Shown here: piece after piece, positions 4,935 through 34,411 of the stretch
Numbering within the stretch: position 1 is the first letter of the stretch
How the letters are laid out: each line of letters starts with the position of its first letter
From: Harriotta raleighana
Taxonomy: Eukaryota
Reading direction: 5' to 3'
Length of the DNA: 64,000 nucleotides
Assembly (NCBI GenBank): GCA_050575255.1
Contig: JBNZDD010013730.1
Span: 4,455,316-4,519,315, forward strand
Made by a program: the position numbers and the translations under genes
Notes under the pieces: generated by a model
Told to the model about the DNA's origin: nothing
Seen by the model: the letters and a program-made list of their open reading frames with translations, nothing else
The model's database searches: none

Positions 4935-6343
4935 GTATAGACATTCTCCAGAAACTTGGTTTCACAGAAAACAAAGGACAGAACCCGTCCTCATCACCTA
5001 CGCAAACATGGCCATCACTTTCATTACCTCAGGGTGTCCTGATGACAGAGTCTGGCATCATGCTGTCAAGCGAAGCCCACATTGAGACAGAAGCAGCAAG
5101 CATCATACCACTAGATATTGGAAGTGAATTCACATTAATAGCTAGCCTCCGCTCTCATAGAGTTAACAATGCCTTTCTTTTTAGTATTAGAAATAAAAAC
5201 AGACTACAGTTTGGTGTACAGATTTTACCAAGAAAGTTAGTCGTATATGTTGCAGAAAAGCCATCTGTATATTTTGATTACAATGCTCACGATGGACAGT
5301 GGCATTCATTTGCTATTGAAATTAAAGGTAAAACTGCTTCCTTTTTTGCCGACTGTGGTAAAAAACATTTCAGCAAAGAGCTCCTTAAAAAGCCACAGAA
5401 ATTTGCTTCAAATAGCAAACTCATTTTAGGAAGAATGAACTTCAAATCAGCTCCATTCGAAGGTGTCATTTGCCAGCTAGATATTTATCCAAATGCTCAA
5501 GCTTCTACAAACTATTGTAATTATGTGAAGAAACAATGTCGTCGGGCGGACACGTATCGATCTCAGCCACCTTCATTAACAACTCCTTCTTATAAAGACT
5601 CCAGATCTCAGTTAATGTCCTCTCCATTGGGTGAAGGAACACAACCAAGCAGCTCCTCATTAATCTCACTTTATGAAGAACAGGAAAGGGTTCAGGATGC
5701 TACCATGTATTTAAATCAATCATTGACAAGCAGCACAGAGCCAACTGCAGTTAGAAGCTCTCCTGATCCAAGTGTTTCTTTTACATCAGCTGTGACTACA
5801 ACATCGCCAACTCCTAACAGCACTGATCCCATGCAGTTACATCAGACCTTGACCACTGACATTGAAACTTGGCTTGTGGAGGCCGTGACTGGGCAGCCAT
5901 ACGTCAGCTTTAATCCTGGGAATGCGGAGGAATCCTCCTTAGAGCAGAAAACAAACGAAAATCGATCCGACAATACTACCGAAGGCGACAGAGGAGGCAC
6001 ATTGCTGTCAGCGGTTAAAGAGTTGCCTCCTCTTACTTCGCCCGTGACACAAAGTAAGATAACAGAAAGTCTGAACAAAACCAACCAGTCCGGAGTTGTC
6101 AAACAAAAACCAGATGAGCTCATGGAAATACAGATGATAAATGTCACCTTGTATAGGTCGTCGCAGGCAAGCTCTTCAAATAATCAATTTGATTTATGGG
6201 ATGAAAACATTCACTCTAATGAGTATACAGAACATATCATGGAAAAGCCTTACGACATCGATATTGAAAGCTACGACTATGAATATGGAGACCTTTATGA
6301 TTACGAAGGTTTGAAAGGGTCGAAAGGGGAGCCAGGTCCAGAG
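4935..6343 (+). CDS. COL24A1: Collagen alpha-1(XXIV) large N-propeptide exon: TSPN/laminin-G domain, variable region, start of minor helix
   Basis: Acceptor tgttccag|GT (phase 1), donor GAG|gtaagt; 1409 nt open. Reads GIDILQKLG..SLRSHRVNNAFLFSIRNKNRLQFGVQILP..HDGQWHSFAI..DCGKK..FEGVICQLDIYP..NYCNYVKKQCR (four Cys of the TSPN domain) and ends GLKGSKGEPGPE. Matches my recollection of vertebrate COL24A1. The ORF-track 'start' at 4874 is intronic read-through. Confidence 0.93.
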
Positions 6344-9055
6344 GTAAGTCTTTTAAATGTACAGTAAATGAATTAAAAATGCATGTGTTAAGTTACTGTG
6401 GCAAGGAAGCATTCAACAGGAGTACGCACAAATTTAGTTAGTTTTGGCAAACTTTCACACTGTGTCTTATGCTACTTGCTAGTGAAACATTAGAATTGGA
6501 ATTGATTCATATTATTTAAGCCAATTCTTAAAATGCCAAAAGATATGCATGGCAGAAACATAAGAGCTATCAACAGCAATATGAAAAGGATTAAAGTTTC
6601 TGTAAATTCTACAGTGCTTTTACTGGAAGTGGATTTCTGTCTTCTGCCAAAGCTTTCAAAGTGTTTCTGCCTTTGGACACTGATAGTTAAGTTTGTTCAA
6701 GGAGGAGCATGGTAGACAAGCCAGATGTCTTAGAGTATGCGGTTGTAAATGTCATTGCTGCTCACTTGGAACAAAACCGTGCCAGTTAATTTTGTTAGTT
6801 AATATCTGAAACACTGGGATTGAAACAATACATTTCATTTATTTACTTGAAGTGTTTTAACTGAAATGTGAATGTACGGTAAATTGCTCGAGATTTTTTT
6901 AGTTTATTCTGCCTCTGTCTCTTCAGTCTTTGATTAAATCATTGACTTCTCCCCCTTTTATTTGCATGGAACAACTGAGACGAACTGCATGTCCTAGAAT
7001 ATAGTTTTACATAAGATGTTGAGCTGTCCATTCAGAGTCTAGTTTGGGGATTTTTTGTTTGGTCAGTGGGTGTTTTGACACAAATCCGCTTTCCTCAACA
7101 ATGAAGACAACTCTTGGCAAGTTTCCCGTTGCTTGTCCGGGTGGGACCACCCTACCCACTCATTTGGCTTTTAAGGTTAACAAGAGCTGAGTGGGTTGGA
7201 TCCCTGCCCCAACTGAGGTGGGGAATAAATCAAATGCTCACTGAAACAAACGTAAATTGTGTTTGTAACACAAAATATAACTCTTGAGATGTCTCTGCTT
7301 CACTTCGTAAATAGTATTGAGTGAACCTTTTTGGCCCAATCTGTTCGAGAATTGGTTTATGCAAGTAGAGTGTGTTTGTGACATTTTTGAAGAATGTCAC
7401 CCAATTGCACAACCAAAGCAGAAGTCATCACTTGTGAATTATGATCCTAGAAAATATCAACGTCTGATAGTTGGAGTAATACAATCGCAATCAACTGACA
7501 CATAACTTTTATAAGGTGTTGGTTCTGATCCAACTGCTATCCGAAAATCTTTTTTTGGCACTGCTGTTTGGCTGATGTCTGGTGCTGGATACTGTAACCA
7601 GTTTAGTGATCTTGCACATCTACGTTTACTCATCTCTGACTGTGTTAAAAGGGCAAAGTAATACAGTATCCAGAATGAACTGAAAAACTAACAGCCATTA
7701 ATTATTTTCTGACTCTTTTTATTGCACACCGTGCTTGGACTGATTCACAGGGAAAATAATTATTGTGCATTTCCGCACTCATTTCCCCGAGACTTTTATA
7801 TATCTTGGCAGAATCTGTGCAGGTTTACATCACTATGGAAGTGCGCAGCAGAATCTTAACAAAATGCAGGAGTCTGACACAATCCTTCATGCTTTCACAG
7901 AAGAGTAGCATTTTCAGATCCACAGTTCCATAGAATAGTTGGATTCCTGATTGCATAGTTTTACCGGTTGACTTGAAAGCTGATTGACTGCCTGATCGAT
8001 GGGAAAATTACAGATAAATTTGGATAGGATGAATGTTCAACTCCATTTCAAATGTGTGATTAAGCAAAGGATAGTAGAGAAATGGATTAAGCACAAAAAT
8101 CACGAGAAACAAATAATGAAATTGACCTCTCGTGGACTGGGACTATTTTGTAACTTCACCAAGGAATGTAGCTTAATTTTGGTGTACGAAGCACAATTTT
8201 TAACAAAAATAAAGCAAATACTGCAAGAAAGAATCATGGAATACTTAAACACTTTGTCACATGTGAGCCCTGCAGTTAGTGTTCCTGAAATGAAAAATAA
8301 TTGGTGCACTAACGCAACAGGAGCAAATTCAAGGCTACTTCATATACAATAATGTAGTCTTAGGTTTTCCCCAGTATTGTTGAGTAATCCACCTCATCTA
8401 TTGCTGTTCCAGAGCTACAAGGAAATAACTGCATGTACAAGCTCGTGCACGTTTTGTTGTTTCAAAGGCTTAATTCACAACTTATTTCTGGTGCTGGGCC
8501 TTTATATAGCTGAGGAGGGTTTACACAAGTCAGCTGGTGTAAAATGTACCACGTTGCTATTTTGTAGGAACTTCCCAAACCCACAGGACCCAAGAAGGTA
8601 TGGCTGGTGATTATTTAGCCAGCCACGATTACATTTGTCACTTTGCTACTTCAGAAACAGCAGTTAAAAAAAATTCCTCTTTAGGAAGGTCTGTCTTGTT
8701 TACTTTGCAGCATTGCCAACTGAAGACTGGGCTGCCATAGTTAGCTAAGCTGGGCAAGTAATGGGGCATTATATTGCTAGCCAAACTACATACAGTCATT
8801 CCCATTACTTTGAAAATGACCCACATCGACAGAAGGCAGTGTTTTCTCATGGATTTCTGTTAAACAGTTGTCTAATTCAGTCTCTGAGTTAACTTTAAAA
8901 TTTTGCTATTTTTAGTTCAGTGATTTAGAATCTCATCTAAACTTTTGACTTGAGTTCCTGCTTGTTTGTGCACTCTCAGTCTTTAATATTTTGCCAAAGC
9001 AGTTTTTAACCTCTTAATGAATCCTCTTAATATATCAAGGTTGAAGTAGTAATCA

Positions 9056-9100
9056 TGTGTATGTATATATATATATAGATATATATCTATATATATATAG
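9056..9100. repeat. (AT)n-type microsatellite
   Basis: gtatatatatatatagatatatatctatatatatatag. Confidence 0.8.
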
Positions 9101-10585: not shown

Positions 10586-10639
10586 GGACCTCCTGGTCCA
10601 CCTGGTCTACCTGGTCCCACTGGAAGAAGAGGCCCAAGG
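10586..10639 (+). CDS. COL24A1: COL24A1 54-nt exon GPPGPPGLPGPTGRRGPR (minor helix)
   Basis: ttctcccctacaag| ... AGG|gtgagt; 6 Gly-X-Y triplets, phase 0. Confidence 0.95.
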
Positions 10640-11019
10640 GTGAGTACAAAAGCAACATGTGATGCCAACCTTACAGTCTATTCACTGTACTCACTCCACC
10701 GACTTTTCTATTGGAATCTGTGCAGTAAAGGCTGTTGTAATGTTTAACACTACAATGTCTTGTACATCGAAGTAGAAGAATCTGTAACCCTTGTAATGTT
10801 CCATGACATCAAAGTTGAGTGAAGTTTGTACTTATAGAGGCACTTTCCAAGAACAATGACATATTTCTTTTGTGGTTTACGTAAAGAAGTTCAACTTGAC
10901 AGTCATTTGGGGGGAATCCTTCGGATACTGCAAACTGATAACAATTGGTGTAATATGAGCTGCCATAAATAGTTTATCAAATGGTCTCCTGAATTAACGG
11001 TGGCAAACTACGCAACCTG

Positions 11020-11820: not shown

Positions 11821-12799
11821 ATGAGCTTCAGTAACAATTGAACTCATTTGAATTCCAAGTTTTCTGAAATAAATATTTGATTCAAAAGCCTCTTAACTGG
11901 ACTTGGTGAAGAAGAGGGTTGTTGCCACAATTGGGGAAACGAAAAGAGTTAGCGTTCTGGAAAGGCATCCAATAGACCAAAAGAGCTGTCTTCACCCGAA
12001 CGCCTCATTTGAACTCGTTACAAATTGAAGTCGACTATGATTGTAGCCAGCAGTCCAGCGCTCTATCTGCAGTCAACTGAGTGGATGAACACCAGGATAC
12101 CTATCAAAAGGATGCTATTCGAACCTATTGCGTTTCATTTTTTCCAGAGAGGGAATTGGCCAGGGAAATTTTCCAGGGTGCTCAGCGTTGACGAGCTCGG
12201 TCTGAAACGCTGAAACACGTTAATTATTTCATACGTGAAATCATTTTGTAGTATTGTTCTCGAGCAAATGGCCACATTCAAAATATGAAATTGTTGAGAA
12301 TTATATTTCTTTAAAATAGGATCCTGCCTGCTAGCTGCACAGTTTCTGTGAGAATGATGCTCCTTTGCTTTGCAGCCAATTTTGGGGGTTATTTTCAGCG
12401 ATATTTGACCTGCAAATAAACTATTTTTCAGTGAATAGCTTGGCTTTGTTCACCTTGGCCATTCTCCAAACTGGTTTCAAATTGCGTCGTTTTGAAACAA
12501 TGTGGCTTTTTTTTCCTTTAGTGAATGGTACGGAGGATTCTTTAAATCAAATTGACGCTTTAAGAAAATGATTCTAAAAATACACCATTGCTTAATTAAT
12601 TTTTAAAAAAAACCTTCGTCAGTCAGAAAGTATACTTTTATCACTGTTAAACTAATCACCCTAAAACATGTATAAATAAGTGAAACTCTGATGATGCAAT
12701 TCAACCATTTGTTTGGGTTTAAAATAGTCTGTTACTCAGCAAGCTTATTTTTTCTCTGGTTATCATTTGTTTGTATATAGCCTTCTTTATAGCAATTTT

Positions 12800-13520
12800 T
12801 GCCAGAGATATAGGATTATAACATAGTTTTAAATGCTTTCAAGTTGGCAGCAAATCAACCACAGAAGATATTTCAAGCAATATTTTTCCGAGTACGTACT
12901 TTGATTTGGGGCATTTGCTCAATTGTCATTTGTCTGAAGAGTGGCAGAACCAATCACGATATGAAGTATGAGTAAGCACTTTAGTCTTCGCCCTTGGTGA
13001 TGGAAACCAAGAGCATCCAGTCAATTGGTCTTTCACTCAGGATACTCTAACTCCAAATTCATCAAACCCCATCAGGTGACTGATGTTAATGCACGAGTCA
13101 ACAACAAACTCCCTGTTCACATAATCTTGCTGATCAATGGTGAACTATTCCAAAGTCACTGCAAGTTGGCTGAACTAACTTTGCAAGTGCTTAGATGGGC
13201 CAAGAAATGCAATACCCTTTTGTATTTCATTCTATAGAGGCAACATTTTTTTTTACTTGAAGTCCTTCAACGTAAAATTGTTTCACTTGTTTGAAGAAAT
13301 AGTTGCATGCATTAGAAGCACCTTGGAAGTTTTCCGTTTCCATTTTGGCTTTGAATCCCACAAACGTGTCTTTGTTGCCTTTCCGAGCATCTTCAATGTG
13401 ATTTTCAAAGCAAAGAATCTCATTCTTGGACTTTCCAGACAACATGTCACGATTGACCAGCTTTTGCAACTACATCTTTGTGCAGCTTTGAGTTCTGGAT
13501 ACAAAATGTGAGTCAAGCGC
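12800..13520 (-). mobile_element. Possible decayed DNA-transposase (hAT-like) fragment
   Basis: Minus ORF 13227-13469 (KLVNRDML..DTFVGFKAK..FFKQVKQFYVEGL..KK) continues after a frameshift as NEIQKGIAFLGP. It resembles fish hAT/ZNF862-like transposase segments from memory only. Confidence 0.35.
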
Positions 13521-13573
13521 ATCACAGAGTGCAGTGAGATTGGTAGCTGAGCTCCTAAGAATAAGAGGTAGTT

Positions 13574-13983
13574 ATAATAATAATCTTTGCATTCAAAATA
13601 GCGCTTTATCACATAATTGAGATGCCTCAAAGCACTTCACAGGATATATGATAGAGTGGATTGGCTATACAACAACAATAATAATCCTTGCATTTGATAT
13701 AGTGCTTTTCAAGACTCACATCTCAAAGCGCTCCACAGAATATACTGTAAAATGAATTGACTGTACATATGTGGGCAAAACGCTACAAACAATTGAGCAC
13801 AGCAATGTCCCATGGTTTGGTGATAAATGATCAATTTATTATTATTGTTTTTTTTGAGGGAATATTATTATTAGGTATATAGAGTAAGGAAACTTGCCCA
13901 AGGTTTCACCCTGCCTGGAATTGAACCCGGATCTCTCGCTTGTAAAGCAAGTGCTCTAACCACTGAGCCTACAGGATTCTACA
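13574..13983 (-). mobile_element. Full-length tRNA-SINE (13676-13983) preceded by a second tail fragment (13574-13670)
   Basis: Reverse complement of head (ctaaccactgagcctacaggattctaca; aattgaacccggatctctcgc), Deu part, and (TTA)n tail. Confidence 0.85.
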
Positions 13984-14019
13984 ATATTTTGTAAGCGAAT
14001 ATGTTTTGTATGCAAACTG

Positions 14020-14181
14020 AGGCAGCCAGTTGCACACAGGAAAGTCCCCAAAACTGAGACAGAGTGAATGACCGATTGTTAACCAGAACACTGGGAGAAC
14101 TTCCCTTTTCTTTTCGAACAGTATCATGGAATGTTTGACATCCACCTGGAGAGGCAGGTGGGACCTCAGTTTAATGTCTCA
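14020..14181 (-). mobile_element. Older DeuSINE (AmnSINE/SacSINE-like) central domain
   Basis: ccagaacactgggagaacttcccttttcttttcgaacagtatcatggaatgtttgacatccacctg...ggacctcagtttaatgtctca. Confidence 0.7.
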
Positions 14182-14519
14182 AGTATTGCTAAGTGGTTTA
14201 TAAGGAAGCATTGCTAAGACTCCAAATCGAAAGAGAGCTGCTCAAAGACACTTGCGTTGGCGTTGATCATTCTATAGACCGAACCTTCAGCTTTCTCCAC
14301 CTTTATAGCTCAAAGCTTTCACCAGAAAAGGATAAAATGCTATTCTTGGGTGTTGGGTAGGAGCTTGTGCAAGGTTTTGTGTGCACTTGTGTACAAAGTC
14401 ATACGAATGCGTTTTGTATTAGAAACTCTGAGAATATTCTGAATCTTTATACGTCTGATAATAATTCATCATCTGTGCTTTTGAAAAATATTGCAAATGA
14501 AGCTGCTAGCCTGGCAACA

Positions 14520-14660
14520 CAGGAAAAAACAAGAGCTGAATGAGACCATTCAGCCCACTGAGCCATTTCCACCAGTTCATTAGATTTTGGCGGATCTTTT
14601 AATCCCAATGCCTGGCTATAGTTTTCGTGCTTCCCAATTTCAATGTACATTTTGCTTCAT
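14520..14660 (-). mobile_element. CR1-like 3' tail fragment
   Basis: gagaccattcagcccactgagcc, the typical antisense CR1 3' stem-loop. Confidence 0.5.
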
Positions 14661-15939
14661 TTACCTGCAAGAGCTTAATTGGCAATCAATCAATCAAAAT
14701 TACATTTGTATAGCGCCTTTGTCGTTGGGAGGATGCAAATAAACAATGTGCATCGATATATTCCTAAACTTTGTTTGACAGGGTGGAATTTTTAGGAACT
14801 GTTAGTCACTTAAATTGAAAGGAACAAGTTAGACACTTAAAACACAATACTTGTTTTGGGATATTATATTTTGAAAAGATAAAAGTGCTTAAGGCAATTT
14901 GATTGTTTGCAGATTTTTTGAAAAATCAAATAAATTCCATTACACATCTCTTTAAGTGGTCTCCTAATGCTACATTTCCAAGGTTCCTGTTGAAATATTC
15001 CTGTTAAACGATTTCTCGGGTATGACCTTTATAATGTGCACCCAACAGAGAAAAATTGTATTTAATCCATTGCTGACAGATGTTTAAGTAGTTAGTCTAA
15101 CCCAGTTATAGGGTTTGAAAATCACTCCTCAGGAAAGCAGTAATATTAACTGGGATTTCACTGCCAGAGGAAACACCTCCCGACGTTTATTTAAAAAATC
15201 AATTCTGGATCTCACAGCCTCTCCTGATGTGATGTCAAGCCAGGCTTGAGGTGTTCACACATCAGTACGACATATTTCCGTATTCTTTAATTCAAAAATC
15301 TGATTTTAGATTCTGTTGTTGGCCTGTACATTTACGAAATTTACCTGCATGTCTGGAAAGCTGGGCAGAAAACCCAGAACCTCAAAGAGTTAAGCCATAC
15401 TCTAGCTTGTGACTGTGGGGTTTTTAATGTCACGAGAGTTCGTCGGGAATACTCCAAGCTTGCCTTAAATGTCAACTGGACAATGATTTGGATTGTTTTG
15501 GAAACAAATAGCAGAAGTACTAGCCAGTACATTTTATACATTCAAAGGTCGCTCCAGGCTATTTCTATGGGCGGAGACAGTTCATAGTAACTGAGGAGTT
15601 CTGTAAGGCAACACTCAAGGCTTGTACAAATGAATGGCCGGGCACCTTTAATGGACTTGGAACATTTTTTCCACCCACACCCCCAAAGGTCATCTGTATA
15701 ATACTCACTGCTTTCGTACACGTGTATGATGTCGCAGAATGTCAGCATTCATTAGCAATTATAAGGACCCCATGCTTTTCACTCGCGTAGTTCTTAGGTT
15801 CCATCAGCTGTTTGCATTGACACCACTCTCAGACAACACAACAGCAGCGGGTCAAGTCAAGGGCAGAGTTCAAGAATGTGGCATCAGTTCTCTACTCCCA
15901 AATCCAGCAATATCAAGAACATTTTGTGAAGTTCCTACA

Positions 15940-16049
15940 CACTAAGCCCAAGATGAAATGGGCTAACTCATCGCAGAGTGGTGTAGAAACTGTTCGTCTC
16001 AGCTCCAAGTGGAGCAATAGCTTTACCAACTGAGCCACCAGAGGAGCTG
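15940..16049 (-). mobile_element. Old tRNA-like SINE head (LF-SINE-like)
   Basis: Minus strand reads gctcctctggtggctcagttggtaaagc (box A-like). Confidence 0.45.
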
Positions 16050-16415
16050 AGTATATAAATGATCGAATGATGAAATCATTAAAATGAGCCCACGAGATTG
16101 TCAATCATTTTAAGTTAACCTGACATTGTTCTCCCTACAGATTTCTGCTACGTACCTCCCCCAAACTATTCTGCTGCTTTGAGCAAATGGGATGCATGGT
16201 GTACAGATGTTACTGTCTTGTATTAATACTGTAGGAGATGTTCAATTAGCAAACACAGCCTGAAAAGCTGAATTACTGTCAGATTTACATATGAGCTAGA
16301 CCGAGATCCAAAGTTTCTCTGGGTTGGTGTATTATTAGTTAATATGGTCTTGCTGGAGAAAGACAATGATGCAATGCTGTTACTCAGTGAAAACTCTCTG
16401 TTCTCATTTCTCTAG

Positions 16416-16469
16416 GGGATGTCAGGACCGCATGGGAATCCAGGATTGCCAGGATTCCCTGGCCCAAAG
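16416..16469 (+). CDS. COL24A1: COL24A1 54-nt exon GMSGPHGNPGLPGFPGPK
   Basis: catttctctag| ... AAG|gtatgt; perfect Gly-X-Y. Confidence 0.95.
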
Positions 16470-17264
16470 GTATGTTTGACTTCCAAGCAATTAATCTGTG
16501 TCACTAACCGATCCTGGTTCCATATGTAGGCAATCTTTGAAGTATTCAAGCAGTCCTTGGCCATTAAATCATTATCTGCTTTGATTGTCTAGGCCATATG
16601 TGAATTAAATGTGAGACGTCACCATTGAACACTGTCCTCCTCAGATATTATTGCTAAACCCACGAGAGAAATGAAAGTAAACAAACTGACCAAAATATAC
16701 AAAAGCTTGCAATTACTTTATACAAAATTGTAAAATTAAGCAATAGGTTTGAACGAATTGTACACTGCAAGGCAAAAATCCTTATTTCTATTCATCGGTG
16801 TGTTTTGTTATGTAATACTGTATATTACATTATTATCAGTGAAACCTAATTCTCTCTGTGAAAATTGGCATTGCCTTGAAATTGTTGATTTCTTATCAAA
16901 CATATTGTACAAATTTATACAGAAAGAGTTGTATTAGTAATCACCATTTGTACAATAGTTTCTCTGCCAATTGGAATCATTTTGATATAATTGAACTGTT
17001 ACAATTACATTTTGCAATTGATATAGCTCGTCAGGGGTATACTGAAAAGTGCTTCACATGGTTAACATGGAGCCTGAGCTCAGCAATTGAGTGGGGGAGG
17101 AGGTTGAAGTGGCCAAAACCGCAGTTACTATCGTTGCAAACATTTTGAATGATGAAGTCCATCAAAGTAAATTAACGTTTACTGAAAATGTTCCTCATGG
17201 TCATTTTGCAGAGCAGAATTCTGAGCCCAAACTGTAAGCTTTCTTAAGGGAAGAATAGTGAGAG

Positions 17265-17519
17265 CACAGCTTGTCCTCACTCTATTGTAAATTGACTATA
17301 GTTGTGGGTGAAACATGGCTGCCAATTGTGCACATCTGTGTTCCACAAACAGTTGTGGATTGAGTGACCAATTTATCAGTGATTTTTTTTTCATGAGAGG
17401 ATTATTATCAGACGTCTGGTAGAAGGAAACTTGCCCAAGATTTTGCCCGGCCTGGAATCGAACCTAGGTCTCTTGCTTGTGAAGAGAGCGCTCTAACCAC
17501 TGAGCTACAGGATTCCACA
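17265..17519 (-). mobile_element. tRNA-SINE (head plus Deu part)
   Basis: ggaatcgaacctaggtctcttgc...gctctaaccactgagctacaggattccaca; ggctgccaattgtgcaca. Confidence 0.8.
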
Positions 17520-17652
17520 ATACCGGACATTTATTCTTTACATGACTCACATCAAATTGATGTTTCAAATAATTTGCCTTGCCCAACTGAATCCCAATAG
17601 TTCCTTTGGAGTATTGCTTTAATTTTATACAGTACCTTACAATGGAATGATT

Positions 17653-17730
17653 TAATAATAATATATAATAATAATCCTTACATTTATATAGCGCTTTCCA
17701 CATCTTATCGACGTCTCAAAGCGCTTAGAG
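17653..17730 (-). mobile_element. SINE/L2 3' tail
   Basis: aataataatccttacatttatatagcgctttccacatcttatcgacgtctcaaagcgctt. Confidence 0.75.
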
Positions 17731-20468
17731 CAGGGGGTGGGGGGTGGGATTAGGGGAAGGAAAGTAGGAAAATTGACTATTGAAAAATACTTTGAATGTA
17801 TTTTCGACAAAGGAGCAGCCGTTTGCAGGTTCTGAGCACTGCAGAGGATGTGCATGTTTACTGCCAGATAATGTGTGACAGCAAAAGTGCTTTTATGGAA
17901 ATTTAGTTAAATAACCCACTAGTCAAGCTTCACAAATTCTGCTGAACTCTGAGCTGAACCTAACATGCCATAAAAATGCTCCTTTCACTTCTTTCCGCAC
18001 ATGAGACTTGGAAGCATTTGCGAAATGTATTTTCTTGTGGTACTGGATTGGTTTGGTAGATGGCCACAATACATGGAACAACTATTTACGCTACATGGCA
18101 TCAACTGTATTTTGTAATGTTATTCTGAGAAGGCTGGTAAGTTGTTCACCAGAATTAAATGAAAATCCTCAAGAGCGCTATCCACTCTCACTTTTATACA
18201 GCACTTTTAAAGTTATTTTAGTTGTTCACATCATCGTAAAAATCCACCAAGTATGTTTTTTTATGAACGCTCCCTAATTTATACACATGTTCTTGATATG
18301 GACAAGCTTAAATTTTACTTTAGATTGTAACTTCACCTATGGCTTCACTTTACAGTTCCTGACATTTCACCCTTGGTGTGATCAACATGATGTTTCTGGT
18401 ATCCTACTTTTGTCTTGAGAGCAATTTAAAATCTTTACCTCTGTGCCTGAGGGCAATTGTTCTGGTCCCATCTGTTTCACTGTTAAATGCTACACAAGGC
18501 GTTTGATCGTAATGTTGGCGTTTTTCTCTTTTTTTTAAAACAAATTGCACGATCTGGACATTTCACTATCATCTTTACAATGTTTCATTGAATTGGGTTG
18601 AAATTCTTGGTTTGATTTGGGCCAAGAGTGTGTGTAACCTTTTATCCATGCCAACCGGTTACTAAAATGGTAAATGCACCTGGTGCCTGTCTTACTTGTC
18701 TGTACTGCTCAGACATGACCAGATTTACCACAAGTCAACATCCAAATGACAGCATCTAGCAACATGTCAGACTGAATAACCTTCGTCAATCCTGAAATAC
18801 CGCTTTGTTGATGCTGTCATTGAAGGCAATTGAATTGGGTGAAATAGACATACTTGGGTTTTATTTAGGGCAGTTTTCGCACGGTCAGTGTGCAGCAGAT
18901 CGGATGAAAGCTGGTGGTCTTAGCTAAACTATTTCCTTCACAGGTTTATTCTGAAAACGTCAATTTTCTGTCCACTTTTTCTGTTTTGTTTCTGCTCCAT
19001 CCACTGTCCACCTTGAAAGGTAGAAGCACCTGTTTAAAAATGTATTTTTATTACTCTATTTTCTTGACAAGTGGCTTTGTTGGAAAGTTTGGCAGCAAAA
19101 GGAAAAGAAGCGAGCCTTGAATTAGGGTTGGAATTTGAGCAAGAAGTACTACAAGAGTGGGAGGAATGAGTGTTTATATGACCAGGTCTACATGGCCACC
19201 AATAGTGAGGAGTATATATTCTCTCTACTATTTTTCTGATTGATTGTCCATGGATTATCTTTGAACAAGAAAATAGTGCAAGCAAATGGCAATGTCAGTG
19301 GGAGAGGGCTGATGAAGATTACAAGTGATCAACAGTGTACAACTGCAAAGCTACAAATATATAGGAATGAGAATGTGTCGATCAGCTGTCCCTATTTCCG
19401 TTTGTGATTAGTTAGTGATGTGTATATATAAACCTGTTTTTCAATTTAGTTATAAATAGTTTAATTATCCCAGTGAATTCAGCTTCTCATGTTAGTTTAT
19501 AAGTGTATCTATACAAGTGTAGCCTTAAACCATACGTCCGAGAACCAGCTGTCTATTTGTATTTATAAGAGAAGGGTATTGAACTGTAGCTAGTATTTGT
19601 GCTACTGGAATAGATTCCTTCTCTTCAGCATCCTTTGCAAACTGGCAAATTCATGCAATCCCTAGATATGATATTTCAAAGGCATAAAAAATCAGATTTT
19701 TGATCAAAACTTACAAGGGACTTGTTCTCAGCACATTCACGGACACATCCCATAAGTTACACAAGTGGAGACGAGGCTGTAGCTAGTGCGAATGTATTTG
19801 ATACATGGCTTTTATGTTGGCAGGACATTTCAAAGTGCTTCACGGGATTTACTGTAAAACATAGTGACTGCTGCATTTAGGAAATGAGAACAGTACAAAT
19901 ATCTGTCTTTCTCTTACCTACTCAATCTCCCTCCCCGTTCACATCTCTCACTCTTGTCAGGCTCCAATTTACCATATCTTTAGAGACAAGAGACTTCTTG
20001 ATGTTACAGACCTTGTGTTTTGCACTAGCAGGGAGTTTAGGAGATTTCTTTTTAAGAACGCACCTTCAGTTTACTGCAACATATCAAGTTTATTTCGTGA
20101 GACTCTCGTCTGGAAAGGTAGGCCAGTACAAATTTTCCAAAATAAGGATTTAATTTCATGTTGCCTCACTTTAACAATTTAAGAAAAACTCTGTGTAAAT
20201 GGCTAAAAGCCACCACTATTTTCACCCCTTAAAACAAAATAATAATTGGTTATAGTTCATGCAGCATATTTTGAGTGAGTACATACAATGTGTAATCCTA
20301 TCTGTTAGCAGATTGATGATTGGAGCTAGATAAGTTTCTTAGAACAATTGCTGAATTAAGAACATTGTCAAATCAATATTGCAGTGTAGCAACTGATTTA
20401 GAGAAGATTCATCATCTGGTTAATTCATTGGAAATAAATTAATTCTACCAGGAAAGGGATTATTTCTC

Positions 20469-20791
20469 TCAAATTGAATTCTACCTTAAAACATTAAACT
20501 CTGCTCCTAGATCTTCAGCAATATTGAACGTGTGAATTGTGCAGCCCCAAAACATTTGACTGGTCTCACTCTGTGTTGCAACATACACAAACACGAGTTA
20601 TCAAAGAAAAAAAGTGCCCCGGTATTATTAANTCAAATTGAATTCTACCTTAAAACATTAAACTCTGCTCCTAGATCTTCAGCAATATTGAACGTGTGAA
20701 TTGTGCAGCCCCAAAACATTTGACTGGTCTCACTCTGTGTTGCAACATACACAAACACGAGTTATCAAAGAAAAAAAGTGCCCCGGTATTA
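20469..20791. repeat. About 160-bp duplication around a single n (20632); likely assembly artefact
   Basis: tcaaattgaattctacc...gtgccccggtatta occurs twice. Confidence 0.85.
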
Positions 20792-21861
20792 GCTTCGCTT
20801 GATTCACCATGTCATCAAATAGGAGATCTAAGAATCTAGTTCGGGGGAAATTCGAGGGGAAAAATGATGGAAAATGCATGAAATGTGTTGATAAAGTATT
20901 GTGGGTCAATATTTTGGAGTTAAATCCTTAGGCATTCTGTCAGTGAGAGGCTTAGCAATAATCTAATCAAAAATGTACCTGCTTCCACTGAAATAATGGA
21001 ATCCAGTTTAGTTCCACTCTTCGCTGCTGCAAAATCTCAATGATCTTTTATTTGAGTAGAATTTCAATTTTCATCAACAGCTTTATGCCCTGATGATCGG
21101 ATGCACATTGGATCAATGTGTTCCAATCAGCAGAACCTTAGTTGAATGTGTTCCAGCGTTTCTTTGGTGGTTTTGTTTCTGCATGAATATACAAAGAGGA
21201 ACATGGCGTTTAAGCATTCTACTTTTGTCGTACACTTTTGTCACTTTGACCCTGAAGGTGCGGCATGAGTCATTTCACACCCGCAGTCTCGCATTAATGG
21301 TGATTTCAGCTACAGAACACTTGATAAAATGGCTGAAATTTGGGGCATTGTGTTGCAAAGCATTTTGTGCCTTAATGTTATTGTGCAGGCCAAAGCAAGA
21401 GTGTGCACATGTGGATAGATTGGTGAATCTATTCCAACTAAGAGATGGAATTGTGGAGGATAATTCTGATTTAATCATGCATAGAGATCCCTCAGGTATT
21501 AAAGGGCATTAAACTGTTACAGAGTTGGATTCCTGTTGTGTGACTATAGAAAGAAGGAACATAAAGGGAAATACAGTGAAACTTTGAAGTACAGTAAACA
21601 GAACAAGTAAAATGTATGTATATATCTTTTAATTTTGTTTTTCTTTGTAATTGTTCATTTTCTTTTTCTGTTCCTTTGACTGAATGCACTTGATTTGCTC
21701 TTTTAATCTACCCTATCTCTTGGTTGTTCTCTCTTGTTGGCTTTTATTTATTTCTGTTTCACTGCCTTTGCTAGTTTTTTTTTCCCCCCTTTACTGTCTT
21801 CTCCCATAGAAGGTACAGAACTTTACCGAGTCCTCCAGTAACTTCACATATAACTGTTCTT

Positions 21862-22010
21862 CATATGTGAGCTTCAGGCAGTGAGTCTTAATCAACCCAT
21901 GGGAGGCAGCTGAACTTAATTCTGTTCTCACCTAAGCGTAGACATTATCCAGGAGATGTCACTGGATATCAATCAGGAGCAGAACCTAAGTTGATTAATT
22001 CCCCCTCCCC
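21862..22010 (-). mobile_element. LF-SINE-like relic
   Basis: gtcactggatatcaatcaggagcagaacc...gattaattccccctccc matches the antisense LF-SINE core as recalled. Related pieces lie at 35788 and 49757. Confidence 0.6.
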
Positions 22011-22121
22011 ACAGGTGTGATCATCTGGCCCAGTGTGGTTTCTTTGCTGCTTCTCTCCCATTTCACACAAAACTTCCAAGTCCATTTCATGTTGGTTCTG
22101 GCTGCAGTCGGCAGAACAATT

Positions 22122-22285
22122 ATGGTCAGCGAGATTCCCCCACACTCCCTCTCATTCTTGACTGCTGCTTTGAAATGACAGGATGGATAGCGATGTGGAT
22201 AGCCTNATGGTCAGCGAGATTCCCCCACACTCCCTCTCATTCTTGACTGCTGCTTTGAAATGACAGGATGGATAGCGATGTGGAA
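22122..22285. repeat. About 80-bp duplication around a single n (22206)
   Basis: atggtcagcgagattccc...gcgatgtgga occurs twice. Confidence 0.85.
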
Positions 22286-24023
22286 TAGTACCATTTGCCA
22301 TTGTCCTGTGTACGTGGATTCAAATCGGGGGCCTCATTAAATACTACAATCTGGGAGTGCTGGCATGCTAAGTGGGGATTCTTTTTCCAGCTGTCAACCA
22401 TTTAACTTGTAAACAAATAATTACTTTTTTTTTATTTATGGTTAAATATGCTTTCCTGGAATTGCTTCAAATGCTTAATTGTGATAGCTACGTTTCTTTT
22501 CCAAGATATTTTTCAAAACACCCTTGCCTAATTTGTAAGAGGCCCATGTGGGGAATAAATAGGGCTTCTGTTTTTCATTATTAATTACTTCTGTTTTTCA
22601 CGATTCACTTTTTGCAATTTGGGGGGTTTTCCGTCGACGTCCCAAAATCTGGGTTTTTGACGTCTTTTGCTTTTTCTATACTGCAATGAGAAGATTTTTT
22701 CCAGGTTTGCTTCTGCAGATGTGCCAGAAGGGAGAGAGAGTCTCCCTCCTTTCACATACACTCCCTTCACACAGTGAGGTGGAGAGCAAGAGTAAGATAT
22801 GTGCATTTGGCACAGCAGGATAACTGCTGAGAATAAGAGAGAGAGAGAAAAAAAAGCTCTTTGAGCAACCATTTCCGGGTGTTAATGGACAAACACCGAT
22901 TTTGTTTTGTTTTTGTACTGGAAGTATTTTATGAGTATTTTTCTGTTGAAACTGAAAATCAGAAGCCCTGGATATAAGTTTCACGTCTGCCCCAAAACCA
23001 TATTTTGCATAATGCACAATAGACCTTCATTACTTGTCATGTACATTCTGAGTTCATAGATGTTCAAGTTTAAATGAAGTATTTTAAAATGGAAGATAAA
23101 TTTCACACATGTGAACAATACAACAGTGGTTACAGTGGTTGCACATGGTTTAGACGTAACGCGCAATGAACTTTATTGACTGGATATTTCCATTGTATGA
23201 AATTGGTTATCACGCTAAAATCAACCTTCTGTGGTAGTTTGGTTCCTCATCTGAATGCTCCAGAGCACTACTTGTGACAGACCTGCCAAGCTGGTTTATT
23301 AGCAGGATTTCAAGAAGAAGACTAGGTACAGGGTTTCTTCCCACTTTGCTCCTGTTAACTTTATCCTGAAGCCCTAATGGGTAGGGTGATCTGAGCTCAA
23401 CAAACAGTGGGGAACTTGGCAGGCAGTGCTCTAAACGGCAAGGTTTTTAGCTGGTTAAAATTCAGCTGTACCCAAAACACACACCATAAGATCCCCACAC
23501 CTTGACTTTTGCCAACCTGTGTCATATGGTTGGAATCAGGTAAGTCAGGTCGAACCTTCGAGTAAGAGAGTTTCAGTTCATACAATTCCAGACACAGGGC
23601 GGTTTCCCTGTGTAGGTGGCAAATATATGTGGAACTCTCAGTATTGTTTAGCTACCCTTAAACTGGTTTATGCATGTGTCAGACACTTGCTGATCAAAAC
23701 AAAAAAAAATCTTTCTACTTGTGAAGCTGACTAAAATTCACTTGTAAAATACATGCAGGAATTACACCCAGTGCTCCCAATAAATACTGTCCTAAATGTT
23801 TAACCAATACGACTGTATTTATTAGTTAACAAGTGCAATTCTGTAGAGTTTAATAACTGCATTATATTTCTTCCAATTATTGAGGGAAGGTACTGTCGAG
23901 TACTGTTTTGGATGAACCATGCTGTTTAGAATTGTTTTTAAATCATGGAGAGTTTGATGATCTCTCTCTCTCTTGACTATATTCTGTTGATTACATGTGG
24001 TGCATGCATAATTCCTACATTAG

Positions 24024-24077
24024 GGTTCAAAAGGAGATCCAGGCTTAACGCCTAGTAAAGCACCACCAGGAGAAAAG
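24024..24077 (+). CDS. COL24A1: COL24A1 54-nt hinge exon GSKGDPGLTPSKAPPGEK (interruption between minor and major helix)
   Basis: cctacattag| ... AAG|gtaaat. Two non-Gly triplets (PSK, APP) fall where mammalian COL24A1 also has an interruption (recalled as GDPGFSPGPVPRGEK). Confidence 0.92.
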
Positions 24078-24156
24078 GTAAATCGAACTGGGAAGTCATC
24101 CCCCTCATCACTGTATGTTTCACTCACAGTCCTGTGTGCTAAACTGTCTTTGCTGC

Positions 24157-24189
24157 CATTCATTCATTCATTCATTCATTCATTCATTC
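24157..24189 (+). repeat. (CATT)8 microsatellite / YCAY cluster
   Basis: cattcattcattcattcattcattcattcattc. Confidence 0.9.
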
Positions 24190-25112
24190 CCATCACTGGC
24201 ACACTTCTGCATGGTTCACCATTATAATGGCTGTTACCTCTTCGGAGGAATAGCTGTGAAGGAGGCTGCTCACCATGGACAGAATGCATGAGAGCGTGGG
24301 GTGAGGTATATTCTTTCTGGTGCGCAATGCATGTGATCAATGTTGGTTCAGTGTTTTTGTGCTCCGTCTCTGCGTTTCATCTTGTGTTTTTTTACATTGA
24401 TGTGAATTTCCATAACAGTCACCGCAATCCATCAGTTTGATTGTCTTTTATTGCATGCGGTGTTGGATCCTATTTGTTATCATTTGAATAAGGATGAGCT
24501 TATTTGAGAGAAACACTTCCACTTTTAAAATCGGCCCAGTGGTCCCAATTCACAGCCACAATTAAGTGTAATTCAAGGAGCCAGCTGTTGGCAACTCCTA
24601 AACGCTCTGTGCTGCACTGAATGGGTACTGAAGTTTCCATTCTTGGCTGAGATGCACAATCCAATGTATGTCTAATGCTCGTATTCCACCCTCCTCTATT
24701 CTAATGGACAAATTGACAGCTTTGGCAGCGTTTTCCTGTACAGAAGATTTTTTAAATACAAGGAATGCTGGCTCATCTTCACCACAATATCACTGATATT
24801 GAAGACCATATTATGATCTGAACCATAATTAAGCATTGGCATCAGTTGAACCCAACTGCCCAAGTCACATGAGTGCAGAAAGTATCATTGGGAGAGGGAA
24901 AGAAGAAGAAAGCTCTCAAGTAAGCTCACCAGGGAATGTATATGTGACTGCAGTGATGTTTTAGAAATTTCAAATGAAAATTGTACAAAAGTCAAATTTA
25001 TCTAATATTTTCCATGAACCAGACATTATTTTACCGGTAATGGCTACTGGCATGTAACAATACATGAGCTAATCCTGAAGAATTCAGAACTGTTCACAGG
25101 AAACTTGGCATC

Positions 25113-25215
25113 ATAATAGTCATCCTTGCATTTGATATGGTGACTTATCACACTTTTGAGACATCTCAAAGAGCTTCACAGAATATACTGTAAAATGACT
25201 GTGTGTTTTGTGAGC
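25113..25215 (-). mobile_element. SINE 3' fragment
   Basis: catccttgcatttgatat...gagacatctcaaagagcttcacagaatatactgtaaa. Confidence 0.7.
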
Positions 25216-25660
25216 GTTGGAGTATTTACCTCAACTTTTTCTTCCTTTTTTATTCTTAAAAATATTTAATTGCGCTATATATTCGAACTGAAAATTGTTT
25301 GAATGTGGGTATGTTTTTTGTAAAAAAAATCTTGTGGCAGAGAAAACTATGAAAATATATCCATAACAAAATATTATCCAACTTGTCACAAGCTCAGTGT
25401 TAATTTCAAGACGTAGCTAATGAATCACTGAAGCCCACACAGAACGTTTGCGAGCAAAATCTGTCACTCCAGTTTCATCCTGCTATTTTTCAACTGGCAG
25501 GAATATTTTGAAGAATGTCATCAGAGTTATCACTCTGAGAACAAACACTGTCCTGGTCACAAAGCTCAGTCAGGGCTCAGAAGTGTCACTTACTCTGCCA
25601 CCTTCTGCCTGAAATATTGTGTTATTTCCACAGCTGATGTGTCAATGCTTTCCTACACAG

Positions 25661-25714
25661 GGGGATGAAGGTCCTATTGGTCCATCAGGTCCTCCAGGTC
25701 CCGGAGGTCAGAAG
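25661..25714 (+). CDS. COL24A1: COL24A1 54-nt exon GDEGPIGPSGPPGPGGQK
   Basis: ttcctacacag| ... AAG|gtaaag. Confidence 0.95.
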
Positions 25715-28700
25715 GTAAAGTACTTTTCTTTTTGCTGCTGAATTGGTCTCTTCTGAGCTGAAATAGAAATCAAGGTGCTGTAACATTTGAGCCATCAATT
25801 ATTTGCCTGTACTTCATGTACTTCAACTCTGAATGTTGTACCCGTTTTAAGAAGACTAACGGTAGGGTGATCCGAGCCAGGTGACCTATTAGTACTTTGC
25901 AATGTCAACTCTGAATGGGACTATGATATCAACTCGGTATAAACACCAAACATCGAATTTCAACCAAATATTTATTTCATTTCTATCTGCCTGAGTTTGA
26001 AATGGGATCATGTCTTAGTTCTGTCTGCAGTTATAAATTTAAGTTTGAATAAATAAAACCTTAGAACTTTTTACTATCCCCCAAAAGTGTTAACAAACAC
26101 AAAGAGCAATCTTCCAATTTAATATTTTCTGCCCAAACATGACCAATGATGCTGATTTGTAGCCTATTGCATTCACAGCCAAGTATGATTGTATCAGACA
26201 CCTATCGGATGTGAGTCTGCTAATTTCCGTGACTCACTGTCTTCTCTTTGAGCTTATCTTAAAATTCCTCTAAAATTATATTTAAAAACTGAATACGGCA
26301 TTGTTTTGTCCTTGAGTATCTTGAAACTTGTGTAATTCTTATATTTTCTATTGTGTATCATTAAAGATGTCTAAAATTCATCAATTGTATTGTAGAAATC
26401 ACCCAGTAAACCATATAGCGAATAAAGGATTAGTGTACAAATTAAAACGATAGATATACTGGGAGAATGACATAATGAGACCCTGAGGCTTTAGTTTCCC
26501 TGCCTAGTGTTGACTGAAGTTCAGGGATAATCAACGATACACTACTGTTAATTATCTCCCTAAATACAGCAGTGTACACCTAAGCCAGCTGACGTTTGTG
26601 TGACCATCATTTGTATTGATGGTACAGTCCGAATGCTGGCACACCTCAGTGGCAATCTCCCTGCTAAGTTTTAGACTCTCATATATTGTCTTCATCACAC
26701 AAAGATACTATAAATCAGAGCAGTGAGAAAATCAAATTACTGTACTCCACACTGGTGTTGCCTCAGGATTGGCGTCTGGCTGTTGGTTGGGCTCGTACTC
26801 AGACCTAGCTCGGTCCTTTGAAATATTGTGCTGGAGGAAACGAAGATGTACAATTATTCTGCTTCATTCTCCCTGCAGCTTGGATGTAATTGTACGTGCC
26901 TTTTTTGAAATAGACATTATTTTAATTGTTTCTGCACTTGTTGCCTCAGCATGTTTCATCAAGTTTGTCTTGGTCTGTGCGTAATGGCACTGAAATGTCT
27001 GCATCGGCTGTAATGGAGTTTAGTAGCGTCTGTCTGGAATTGACCAATTTCCTGGTAAAGTCCAGGATTGATTCATTTACACTATATATAATAAATACAA
27101 TCGTTAGTTCAGTAAACGTTTTTACAAACTTAAACATGTATCTTGACACTTACAATTAAGATGCATGGCTACTTCATCTCAATTAGAGAGAAGGCCCGTT
27201 ATATCTTACTTGCTAATCTGTCCTGAAAAATAAAGATTTTTAAAAATATCTTCGGCCTGATAAAAGCTCTCACTAAATCCACGACCCTTGGCTGTGCTGC
27301 TTTCTTCTGCTCTCTCAGGTGATGAATCTTCTCGCTGTGGAATTGCATTTGTTTGCAAACAAATGCAACCTGCCACTCCGGCTGATCAGCCTCCACAGTT
27401 TTGTGTGCTCGCTTTTCCAAAATGCAGTGTAGTTTTCCGTGATTGATTGAGCTCCCAAATTGGATCAATTCTGGCCTGTTGGGGTTTTCTCAGCTTGCCC
27501 AGTGTGAATCAGCTTGGCTTCAGATGGCACACAGTGGCCAAAACAAGTCAGTGCAGTTTCAGATGCGTCAGCACAGGCGCTGCAGTTAAAATAAACACTG
27601 ACGCGCAACTGAAAAATGTAATGTACGCAGTGGCTGTTCCCTACAAAAGACTCCAATAAAACCCAGTATCAGTGTGGTTCAATGAAATCAGAGGAGCTGA
27701 TCACTGGAGCCACCCATCATTCGCAGTCTACCATGGCACCTGGCAACGGAATAAAACCATATCACAGAAGTGGGAAGAAATGTTATGGTATGTCTTAAGA
27801 AATCTGAGTGGAGGTGTTGCACTCGGCGCTCTGACATGCTGGAACTTTACTTCGAAAAGGGAGAATTGAAACGCCAATTCCCGTGAGTCAGAATCCTGGC
27901 CTTCCACGTTTCCCAGTTAGGAAATCTAGCAAGAAATACTGCTAAGTTGATCCTTTTAAAATTTGGATCAGTGAAGCTGTTGATATCCAGTCCCGACCCA
28001 CAATTCCAAATAGAAAGACAACCCCTTAGGATTCACATTTTTCTCATTAGGAACTTTGCTTTTGATCCTCTACAAATTTTGCCAACTTTGCATAGTACAT
28101 TATCATACAATTGTTTACAACTAGCAAGCATGAGGACCATATTTCCAAATCGACTAAACCATTCATTCTTAAGTAAAATCTCAGGCCTTTCTATATACTG
28201 CATACATATACTGTATATATATATATATGTTTATATTTGCACATCTGTACATTTCTGTATATTTTCTTCTTGAGGTATTTTTATTGGTTTTGAATTATTT
28301 CCACAGTCTTCTCTTTCAATACCATTTTGCAATGCTTACATTCCAAGTCAAATATTGGAACCACAGCTGCAATTTTCCAGTCTTCAGGAATTTTTTTCTC
28401 CTGACCAAGCACTTTTTGAGATAGTTATTTGGTGATTGCTGGATACCAGCCACAGTAGAATATTCTGCCTAATCACACCTGTAACTGGATTGTGGCCATT
28501 TTTTCAAAATTCCACTTCACCCTTGAGGGTTCGTTCACTTTATGTAGACCATGAAACTAAATAAACCAATCCTTCTTTCAAAAAAAAAACTAATTTAATA
28601 TTATTTTCTTCACGTCTTCTGATACCGCATTACTTGCCTAGGAGCTGCTCCTTGGCCTTTACCAGCTTTACAACCAGCCTTTCGTTCATTAATTTTCTTC

Positions 28701-29180: not shown

Positions 29181-29220
<40 letters not shown>

Positions 29221-29309
29221 ACCACCACCTTCCCCTGCACCCGTTTTTATACAGTGTTTTGAAGGGTATGAAACGTATTTGAAATAATTCATTTTCAGNA
29301 CCACCACCC

Positions 29310-29354
<45 letters not shown>

Positions 29355-29429
29355 ACCACCTTCCCCTGCACCCGTTTTTATACAGTGTTTTGAAGGGTGT
29401 GAAACGTATTTGAAATAATTCATTTTCAG
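29120..29429. other. Assembly gap (61 n) plus poly-C tracts duplicated around a single n (29299)
   Basis: n run 29120-29180; C runs 29181-29220 and about 29311-29354; the flanking accttcccctgcacccg...cattttcag occurs twice. Confidence 0.9.
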
Positions 29430-32731: not shown

Positions 32732-33290
32732 GTATGTGCTTTGAATTCCTTTTCTCTTGTCATTTGCCAATGTTTGCTTTGTAATTGACATGATATTTGA
32801 GAAAGTGTTACGCCTGGCATGTAGGTAAGTTTCACAAAATCAGCCCGTCCAACGTTATGAACTGAAGGAACGGAAAGTTGTGCGTTGACGAGGAGTTCTT
32901 ATCATGTTGCTGATTTGTGAGAAATTGTGGTCTCTTCATCACTTGTTCATAAAGAGTTTTAACATTTCCTGTTGCCAGCAAACAGTGCGACAGGCCTCAA
33001 GAATTTACTGAAAATTAACTATTTCATCGTGGCTTTATATTTTAATCAATGTGAAGCCTGTAATAAAATACAATTAAGAGGCAGTTGCTGAAAAAAATGT
33101 CTTCGCCTAATCTTCTAATTAAGGTTTCAACCCCATTCTTTGGGTTTTGGATGAAGCACAGTCACTATTTCCATTTGGAGATTCAGATCAACCTCAAAGG
33201 CACAGAGCTGGAATTAGTCTTGAAAATTTGCCACAAATGCTTAATGTCCCTTGATCCACTTAATCCTCTAGATACTCAGTCTGCTGTAAC

Positions 33291-33493
33291 TGATAAGAGT
33301 TGAAATGTTGGGAGAAACAGAAACAAATCTTGAGCATTTCATGCGACAGTTAACAGTGTTTAGAATTAGAAGCGTGAGCAATCAGACCTACNTGATAAGA
33401 GTTGAAATGTTGGGAGAAACAGAAACAAATCTTGAGCATTTCGTGCGACAGGTAACAGTGTTTAGAATTAGAAGCGTGAGCAATCAGACCTAC
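33291..33493. repeat. About 100-bp duplication around a single n (33392)
   Basis: tgataagagttgaaatg...cagacctac occurs twice with two substitutions. Confidence 0.85.
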
Positions 33494-34284: not shown

Positions 34285-34411
34285 ACCATGTGGAACATCA
34301 ATTCACCTGCTCTGCTGTACTGGTTTATTGACGTTACATTGAATGGGCANACCATGTGGAACATCAATTCACCTGCTCTGCTGTACTGGTTTATTGACGT
34401 AACATTGAATG
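34285..34411. repeat. About 60-bp duplication around a single n (34350)
   Basis: accatgtggaacatc...acattgaatg occurs twice. Confidence 0.85.

What the first reader, a model, noticed from the sequence alone, without database searches (positions are those of the whole stretch)
24001..24457. RBFOX + NOVA motif cluster around the helix-interruption exon: candidate splicing switch that would fuse the minor and major helices
Seen: five TGCATG hexamers in about 460 nt. One sits in the acceptor region (24001) and four lie downstream (24208, 24285, 24328, 24452); a uniform model expects about one per 4 kb. A dense YCAY field (tcat/tcac/ccat, 24096-24197) includes (CATT)8, and the acceptor is weak (tgcatgcataattcctacattag). 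I did not notice such a cluster at any other exon. Known: downstream UGCAUG (RBFOX) and YCAY clusters (NOVA) promote inclusion of cassette exons. Inference: this 54-nt phase-0 exon alone encodes the non-Gly hinge (PSK-APP). Skipping joins ..GPK to GDE.. and gives one uninterrupted Gly-X-Y run with no hinge, which could change N-propeptide folding-back or processing in a tissue-specific way.
Basis: partly seen in the sequence, partly recalled or inferred. Interest (0 to 1): 0.75.

Follow-up and report, generated by a model that had tools for sequence, protein, structure and literature searches.

The report
Splicing-enhancer cluster beside collagen XXIV exon
In a shark-like collagen XXIV gene, the small exon carrying the family's kink in the triple helix is followed by a real cluster of motifs that RBFOX and NOVA splicing proteins likely bind; it most likely keeps the exon in rather than switching it out, as all 33 informative copies of this protein found retain it.

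Summary
The motifs are real: five TGCATG and the window's densest YCAY field flank a 54-nt exon (24024-24077) of COL24A1; nearest named relatives are shark proteins. The cluster beats chance (P about 0.001-0.005) and sits where RBFOX/NOVA enhancers act. But the background is 1 TGCATG per 1.7 kb, a second cluster follows the large, frame-breaking exon (6380-6991), and the acceptor is only modestly weak. The protein framing is wrong: collagens XXIV/XXVII have no minor helix; this exon carries their two successive, in-register Gly substitutions inside the single helix. No skipped form was found: 33 of 33 informative COL24A1 proteins keep the exon, Col24a1 is absent from a mouse cassette-exon table and a GTEx tissue-specific list, and 3 of 3 paralogous COL27A1 introns lack the cluster. 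Junction reads and orthologous introns could not be examined. Best reading: an RBFOX/NOVA-type enhancer securing inclusion (0.42); a true tissue switch remains possible (0.3). New member of a known kind; interest 0.3.

The parts
4935..6343 (+). Large 1409-nt COL24A1 exon: TSPN/laminin-G domain, variable region, first four Gly-X-Y triplets; length not a multiple of 3, so it cannot be skipped in frame
6380..6991 (+). Second TGCATG cluster (6380, 6546, 6963, 6986; GCATG at 6707) below the large exon
10586..10639 (+). 54-nt Gly-X-Y exon
16416..16469 (+). 54-nt Gly-X-Y exon directly upstream of the target exon
   Evidence: contiguous with the target exon in homologues
24001..24006 (+). TGCATG at -23, between the likely branch points (about 23973-23993) and the acceptor AG; a position predicted to repress
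   Evidence: direction from general knowledge of the RBFOX RNA map
24024..24077 (+). Target 54-nt phase 0-0 exon GSK GDP GLT PSK APP GEK (third small exon after the large one; 'exon 6' is recalled human numbering)
24051..24068 (+). Two successive in-register Gly substitutions (PSK, APP), 19 triplets after the helix start; clade C hallmark
24096..24196 (+). YCAY field, 15 sites at +19..+116 (NOVA-type downstream enhancer position)
24157..24189 (+). (CATT)8.2 microsatellite giving 8 of the 15 YCAY
24130..24300 (+). Possible decoy exon (acceptor 24130, donor 24300) with a stop codon, only 52 nt after the real donor; may be chance
24208..24457 (+). Four TGCATG at +131, +208, +251, +375 (RBFOX-type downstream enhancer position), in low-copy DNA
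   Evidence: low depth of bin 23729-24395 against repeat bins
25661..25714 (+). Next 54-nt Gly-X-Y exon

Best explanation
This is a real cluster of RBFOX- and NOVA-type motifs below a 54-nt COL24A1 exon, and it likely works as an intronic splicing enhancer that keeps the exon in the message, so that skipping would be a minor event. Shown: the motifs, their excess over chance, their position, the gene identity, and the two Gly substitutions in the exon. Inferred: in neurons NOVA would bind the YCAY field and RBFOX1/3 the UGCAUGs, in mesenchymal cells RBFOX2 would bind the UGCAUGs; binding downstream of the donor would help define a short, pyrimidine-poor exon after a 7.5-kb intron and would mask the decoy sites at 24130/24300. 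Because the cell types that express COL24A1 carry RBFOX proteins, the exon would be included nearly always, keeping all three chains of the homotrimer in register.
For: Cluster statistics. 33 of 33 COL24A1-type proteins that read through keep the exon, 0 skip, 4 more are truncated or mis-modelled; this includes 9 of 9 Aotus RefSeq isoforms that differ elsewhere, a Xenopus NP_ record and two Logan-derived rodent-cluster proteins. Col24a1 has no row in a mouse cassette-exon table of over 14,300 rows that lists Col13a1, Col25a1, Col11a1, Col5a1, Col2a1, Col19a1 (PMC5989265 supplement), nor in the GTEx tissue-specific list that holds COL13A1 and COL25A1 (PMC6952364 supplement). A similar UGCAUG cluster follows the large exon that cannot be skipped in frame, and TGCATG is sense-biased over the gene (37 against 15, rank 6 of 1806 hexamers). 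Only 34% of exons with a conserved downstream TGCATG had skipping evidence (PMC1877881 passage). Induced in-frame helix-exon skipping impaired collagen III matrix deposition (PMC11354334 abstract).
Against: No binding, junction or conservation data for this species. Most protein records are gene models biased towards the reference form and are not independent (10 Aotus, several salmonids). COL24A1 is weakly expressed, so catalogues may miss it; they cover mouse and human only. Co-occurring NOVA and RBFOX clusters are typical of regulated neural exons (general knowledge), and a Col13a1 exon is a predicted target of both. NOVA sites would be needless if RBFOX2 alone secured inclusion. The splice sites are mid-ranked, so the exon may need no help.
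Confidence: 0.42

Rival explanations
1. True tissue-regulated cassette exon: NOVA plus RBFOX1/3 drive inclusion in neurons (and perhaps muscle), while other tissues, at least in cartilaginous fishes, skip it and make a chain 18 residues shorter without the two Gly substitutions.
For: Both motif families sit at canonical enhancer positions below the one exon with the double Gly substitution. Downstream TGCATG raises skipping odds from 8.5% to 34%. Collagen precedent: Col13a1 exons predicted as Rbfox/Nova/Mbnl targets and a brain/muscle-high COL13A1 exon. COL24A1 is expressed in cortical neurons (PMC11701334 passages). The -23 UGCAUG gives a repressive site for graded control.
Against: 0 of 33 COL24A1 proteins skip it, including whale shark and skate models. 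Absent from both catalogues. The only two uninterrupted records are COL27A1-type genome gene models, P0152 and P0326. 0 of 3 paralogous COL27A1 introns carry the cluster. Mixed trimers would be out of register (inference).
Confidence: 0.3
2. No function: a (CATT)n slippage microsatellite plus a chance run of a hexamer that is common in this gene.
For: 8 of 15 YCAY come from the microsatellite. 28 of 4054 hexamers form a 5-in-457-nt cluster somewhere in the window. About 20,000 such GCATG clusters exist per mammalian genome (PMC12435732 section 8), and one per window is expected half the time. Paralogous introns lack it.
Against: The 6-mer cluster is significant after correction; YCAY stays enriched with the repeat collapsed (P=0.0002); both clusters of the window lie just below exons and none is on the antisense strand.
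Confidence: 0.18
3. The sites act on another event: they silence a stop-containing decoy exon (24130-24300) or a decoy donor at 24300, or govern retention of this 1.6-kb intron, tuning COL24A1 output.
For: The decoy acceptor (7.4) and donor (7.7) score like real sites, and the decoy spans the microsatellite and two UGCAUG and holds a stop codon. TGCATG-type elements suppressed intron-proximal donors in reporters.
Against: The same scan gave 4 cryptic acceptors and 11 cryptic donors in 2.8 kb, so such pairs are common; the decoy acceptor is only 52 nt from the real donor; no transcript evidence.
Confidence: 0.1

Closest known systems
COL24A1 (collagen alpha-1(XXIV), clade C fibrillar collagen)
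   Same: TSPN domain, variable region, 54/45-nt helix exons and a homologous exon with two successive Gly substitutions.
   Different: No regulated splicing of this exon was found in print (searches) or in the protein records. This genome also has a Gly-to-Ser triplet at 63892.
(U)GCAUG clusters bound by RBFOX/LASR (PMC12435732)
   Same: Meets the definition, 4 or more GCATG within 500 nt.
   Different: Here proximal to an exon and paired with a YCAY field; binding untested.
COL13A1 alternative exons (RBFOX/NOVA/MBNL predicted targets)
   Same: Short in-frame collagen exon with both motif families implicated.
   Different: COL13A1 is a transmembrane collagen with catalogued skipped forms; COL24A1 is fibrillar and no skipped form was found.
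COL27A1 homologous exon
   Same: Same 54-nt exon with the double Gly substitution.
   Different: 0 of 3 fetched introns have a UGCAUG or dense YCAY cluster (one has a single TGCATG at +19).

Membership tests
COL24A1 / clade C fibrillar collagen | N-terminal TSPN (laminin-G-like) domain | tested here: met
   Pfam Laminin_G_2 above cut-off
COL24A1 / clade C fibrillar collagen | Best named relatives are alpha-1(XXIV) chains | tested here: met
   8 of 12 hits are named XXIV by their first-listed source; top two representatives are Scyliorhinus (69%) and Rhincodon (67%) XXIV
COL24A1 / clade C fibrillar collagen | No minor helix; two successive Gly substitutions within the major helix | tested here: met
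   19 perfect triplets, then PSK APP in register, then Gly-X-Y; definition in PMC2852846
COL24A1 / clade C fibrillar collagen | Gly-X-Y-Z imperfection and C-propeptide | not testable with these tools
   Beyond the window's end; no genome held
   Only two in-register triplets lack Gly; XXIV/XXVII lack a minor helix
(U)GCAUG cluster (PMC12435732 definition) | 4 or more (T)GCATG within 500 nt on the sense strand | tested here: met
RBFOX-activated cassette exon | UGCAUG in the proximal downstream intron | tested here: met
   4 sites at +131..+375
RBFOX-activated cassette exon | A skipped transcript exists | tested here: inconclusive
   Not found in 33 of 33 proteins or two catalogues; no junction data for this species. 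Not filed as a member.
RBFOX-activated cassette exon | Motifs conserved in orthologous introns | tested here: inconclusive
   No orthologous intron retrieved; only 3 paralogous introns, without the cluster
NOVA-enhanced exon | YCAY cluster within about 200 nt below the donor | tested here: met
   19 in 200 nt, highest of 21 exons (next 8); position rule recalled
NOVA- or RBFOX-regulated exon | CLIP binding and splicing change on depletion | not testable with these tools
   Needs experiments; not listed in mouse target tables

The most novel reading that the evidence does not exclude
In cartilaginous fishes, and perhaps unnoticed in other vertebrates, NOVA and RBFOX switch the defining double Gly substitution of collagen XXIV on in neurons and off elsewhere, giving a kinked neural chain and an uninterrupted, 18-residue-shorter skeletal chain: a regulated splice inside the helix of a clade C fibrillar collagen.
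Probability: 0.3. Interest if true: 0.62.

Novelty: new member of a known kind. Interest (0 to 1): 0.3.

Why it matters
The role of the helix interruptions that set collagens XXIV and XXVII apart is unknown (PMC2794549 passage). If this exon is regulated, nature supplies the with-and-without pair and the question becomes testable by one RT-PCR. If the cluster only secures inclusion, it is one of thousands of RBFOX clusters, useful mainly as a sign that splicing of this exon is protected and that COL24A1 pre-mRNA may be an RBFOX/NOVA substrate.

Tried and rejected
RNA evidence: no RNA holder on record was listed; two coded runs held 0.04 of the words. Laid on 5720-25719 they proved to be a relative (65 differences in about 620 letters of the large exon); the joint and loose-end tables were filled by repeats (15 joints shown, 675 more hidden), so no junction at the target exon was seen. 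One hint, arithmetic only: X1 record 1 runs 112 letters past 6340, equal to 3+54+54+1, i.e. it would stop at the end of the exon before the target; one shared letter fits an exon/intron fork better than a skip/include fork (two shared letters). The letters were not shown, so it is not used as evidence. Orthologous introns: degenerate exon patterns found nothing in metagenome, genome or viral contigs; a looser one gave 3 COL27A1-type loci (assigned by likeness). Protein searches were crowded by collagen VII or gave 2 hits. Supplements without a working positive control, hence uninformative: PMC4930328 (2 small files, no control terms), PMC10287156, PMC4801060, PMC5630039 (11 of 27 files). The cluster tables of PMC12435732, which would show whether mouse or human COL24A1 has a cluster at this exon, were not seen. 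RNA structure: none beyond shuffles (z 0.15). High-copy repeat origin rejected: depth 1-12 in the bin against 10^3-10^5 in repeat bins. MBNL (YGCY) and QKI motifs are not enriched. No structure or complex prediction was run: it would not bear on splicing. Earlier scan notes: none found.

Full report
Observation. The five TGCATG are at the stated places: one at -23 from the acceptor and four at +131, +208, +251 and +375 from the donor of the exon 24024-24077. Fifteen YCAY lie at +19..+116, the densest 100-nt window of the 64 kb (15 against 8 for the next); eight come from (CATT)8.2 at 24157-24189. The window holds 37 TGCATG, so the background is 1 per 1.7 kb. Even so, five within 457 nt anywhere has P=0.0035, and four within 400-500 nt below one of 21 exons has corrected P=0.002-0.005. 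Local dinucleotide shuffles give P=0.001 for TGCATG and P=0.0002 for YCAY with the microsatellite collapsed. Against this, 28 of 4054 hexamers form a similar cluster somewhere, and the looser published definition (4 GCATG in 500 nt) is met by chance in about half of such windows. The region is low-copy DNA with no unusual RNA fold.

A second group of four TGCATG lies +37..+643 below the large exon (P=0.0002); that exon is 1409 nt and cannot be skipped in frame. And the acceptor is only modestly weak: 10 pyrimidines in 17 positions (tied second lowest of 21), but rank 11 of 21 by a leave-one-out matrix built from this gene's own sites, with the donor at rank 12. TGCATG is sense-biased across the gene, 37 against 15 (32 against 14 without the cluster, P=0.011).

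The gene. The large exon (4935-6343) encodes a laminin-G/TSPN domain and hits collagen alpha-1(XXIV) chains; the nearest named representatives are Scyliorhinus torazame (69%) and Rhincodon typus (67%), so the window is likely from a cartilaginous fish. Twenty-one 54- or 45-nt Gly-X-Y exons follow. The helix starts in the large exon; after 19 perfect triplets come PSK and APP, in register, then Gly-X-Y again. This is the 'two successive glycine substitutions' of types XXIV and XXVII, which have no minor helix (PMC2852846, passages; PMC2794549, passages). So skipping would not fuse two helices; it would shorten the one helix by six triplets and remove a kink near its N-terminal end.

Is the exon skipped? 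Of 37 COL24A1-type proteins in hand that reach the preceding exon, 33 include the exon, 0 skip it and 4 are truncated or mis-modelled (my assignment to XXIV or XXVII rests on source names where given, else on likeness). They span skate, whale shark, sturgeon, teleosts, frog, birds, rodents and a monkey, but are not independent and most are gene models. Nine of nine Aotus RefSeq isoforms keep it while differing elsewhere. Of 12 COL27A1-type proteins, 9 include, 1 is uninformative and 2 lack it; both are genome gene models (Jacana, Dissostichus) and likely missed exons. Col24a1 and Col27a1 have no row in the mouse cassette-exon table of PMC5989265 (over 14,300 rows; all 15 supplement files searched; passages), which lists six other collagens tested, nor in the GTEx tissue-specific list of PMC6952364, which holds COL13A1 and COL25A1 (supplements; passages). 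Low expression could hide it. Four other papers' supplements were uninformative. Literature searches (listings) showed no paper on splicing of this exon; the library lacks most subscription papers. The one read-laying run gave no junction.

Conservation. No orthologous intron could be fetched. Three paralogous COL27A1-type loci from metagenome contigs have 0, 1 and 0 TGCATG in the first 500 nt and 1, 2 and 7 YCAY in the first 200 nt, so the cluster is not shared across clade C; this says little about COL24A1 orthologues.

Mechanism. By the RBFOX and NOVA RNA maps (recalled; positional enrichment of TGCATG in PMC1877881 passages) downstream sites enhance inclusion and the -23 site would repress; the balance predicts enhancement. 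COL24A1 is expressed in bone-forming tissue (PMC3492790, search listing) and in cortical neurons (PMC11701334, passages); mesenchymal cells carry RBFOX2 and neurons RBFOX1/3 and NOVA (recalled). An enhancer used in both would make the exon near-constitutive, which fits the protein records and the second cluster below an unskippable exon. There is a reason to protect it: chains with and without 18 helix residues would be out of register in a homotrimer (inference), and induced skipping of in-frame COL3A1 exons impaired matrix deposition (PMC11354334, abstract). I give this 0.42. A real tissue switch gets 0.3: the paired motifs are typical of neural exons, a downstream conserved TGCATG raises skipping odds from 8.5% to 34%, and a Col13a1 exon is a predicted Rbfox, Nova and Mbnl target. 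Chance gets 0.18, since such clusters number about 20,000 per mammalian genome (PMC12435732, abstract and section 8). Action on a decoy exon at 24130-24300 gets 0.1.

Verdict. A real, well-placed motif cluster of a known kind at an interesting exon. It works like an RBFOX/NOVA intronic enhancer; membership among regulated cassette exons is not shown. Interest 0.3; 0.62 if junction reads show a tissue switch.

Noticed in passing
window 6380-6991: Second TGCATG cluster (four 6-mers plus one GCATG) below the 1409-nt exon; may help define this unusually large exon.
   Followed up: partly
window 63892-63894: AGC (Ser) at a Gly position in the last exon seen (GEH GDT GII GKH SEP), where the Apodemus protein has Gly; a lineage-specific substitution, an allele or a sequencing error.
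   Followed up: partly
window 1-64000: TGCATG is sense-biased over the whole gene (37 against 15; rank 6 of 1806 hexamers) and over-represented under an order-3 model (rank 9 of 3995).
   Followed up: partly
window 2249-2727, 20469-20791, 22121-22284, 29181-29429, 33289-33493, 34285-34411, 47414-47622: Near-perfect two-copy tandem duplications, each around a single N: likely scaffold-join artefacts. 2740-3009 is a similar duplication without an N.
   Followed up: partly
window 13057-15057, 17059-17725, 19727-20393, 25063-25719: High-copy interspersed repeats (depth 10^3-10^5 in a relative's runs); related copies at 13718, 19825, 25161.
   Followed up: no
window 53231-53284: The weakest acceptor of the gene (8 pyrimidines in 17) has one TGCATG at +58; a further candidate enhancer-dependent exon.
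   Followed up: no
window 59100-59620: Purine-rich (GA) low-complexity tract that accounts for many of the other hexamer clusters.
   Followed up: no
proteins P0301, P0296, P0302, P0298: Four Aotus COL24A1 isoforms lack a 39-residue block (820-859 of P0303), so annotated variation in this gene lies further downstream.
   Followed up: no
L002:1575-1580: Single TGCATG at +19 below the homologous exon of a COL27A1-type locus.
   Followed up: no
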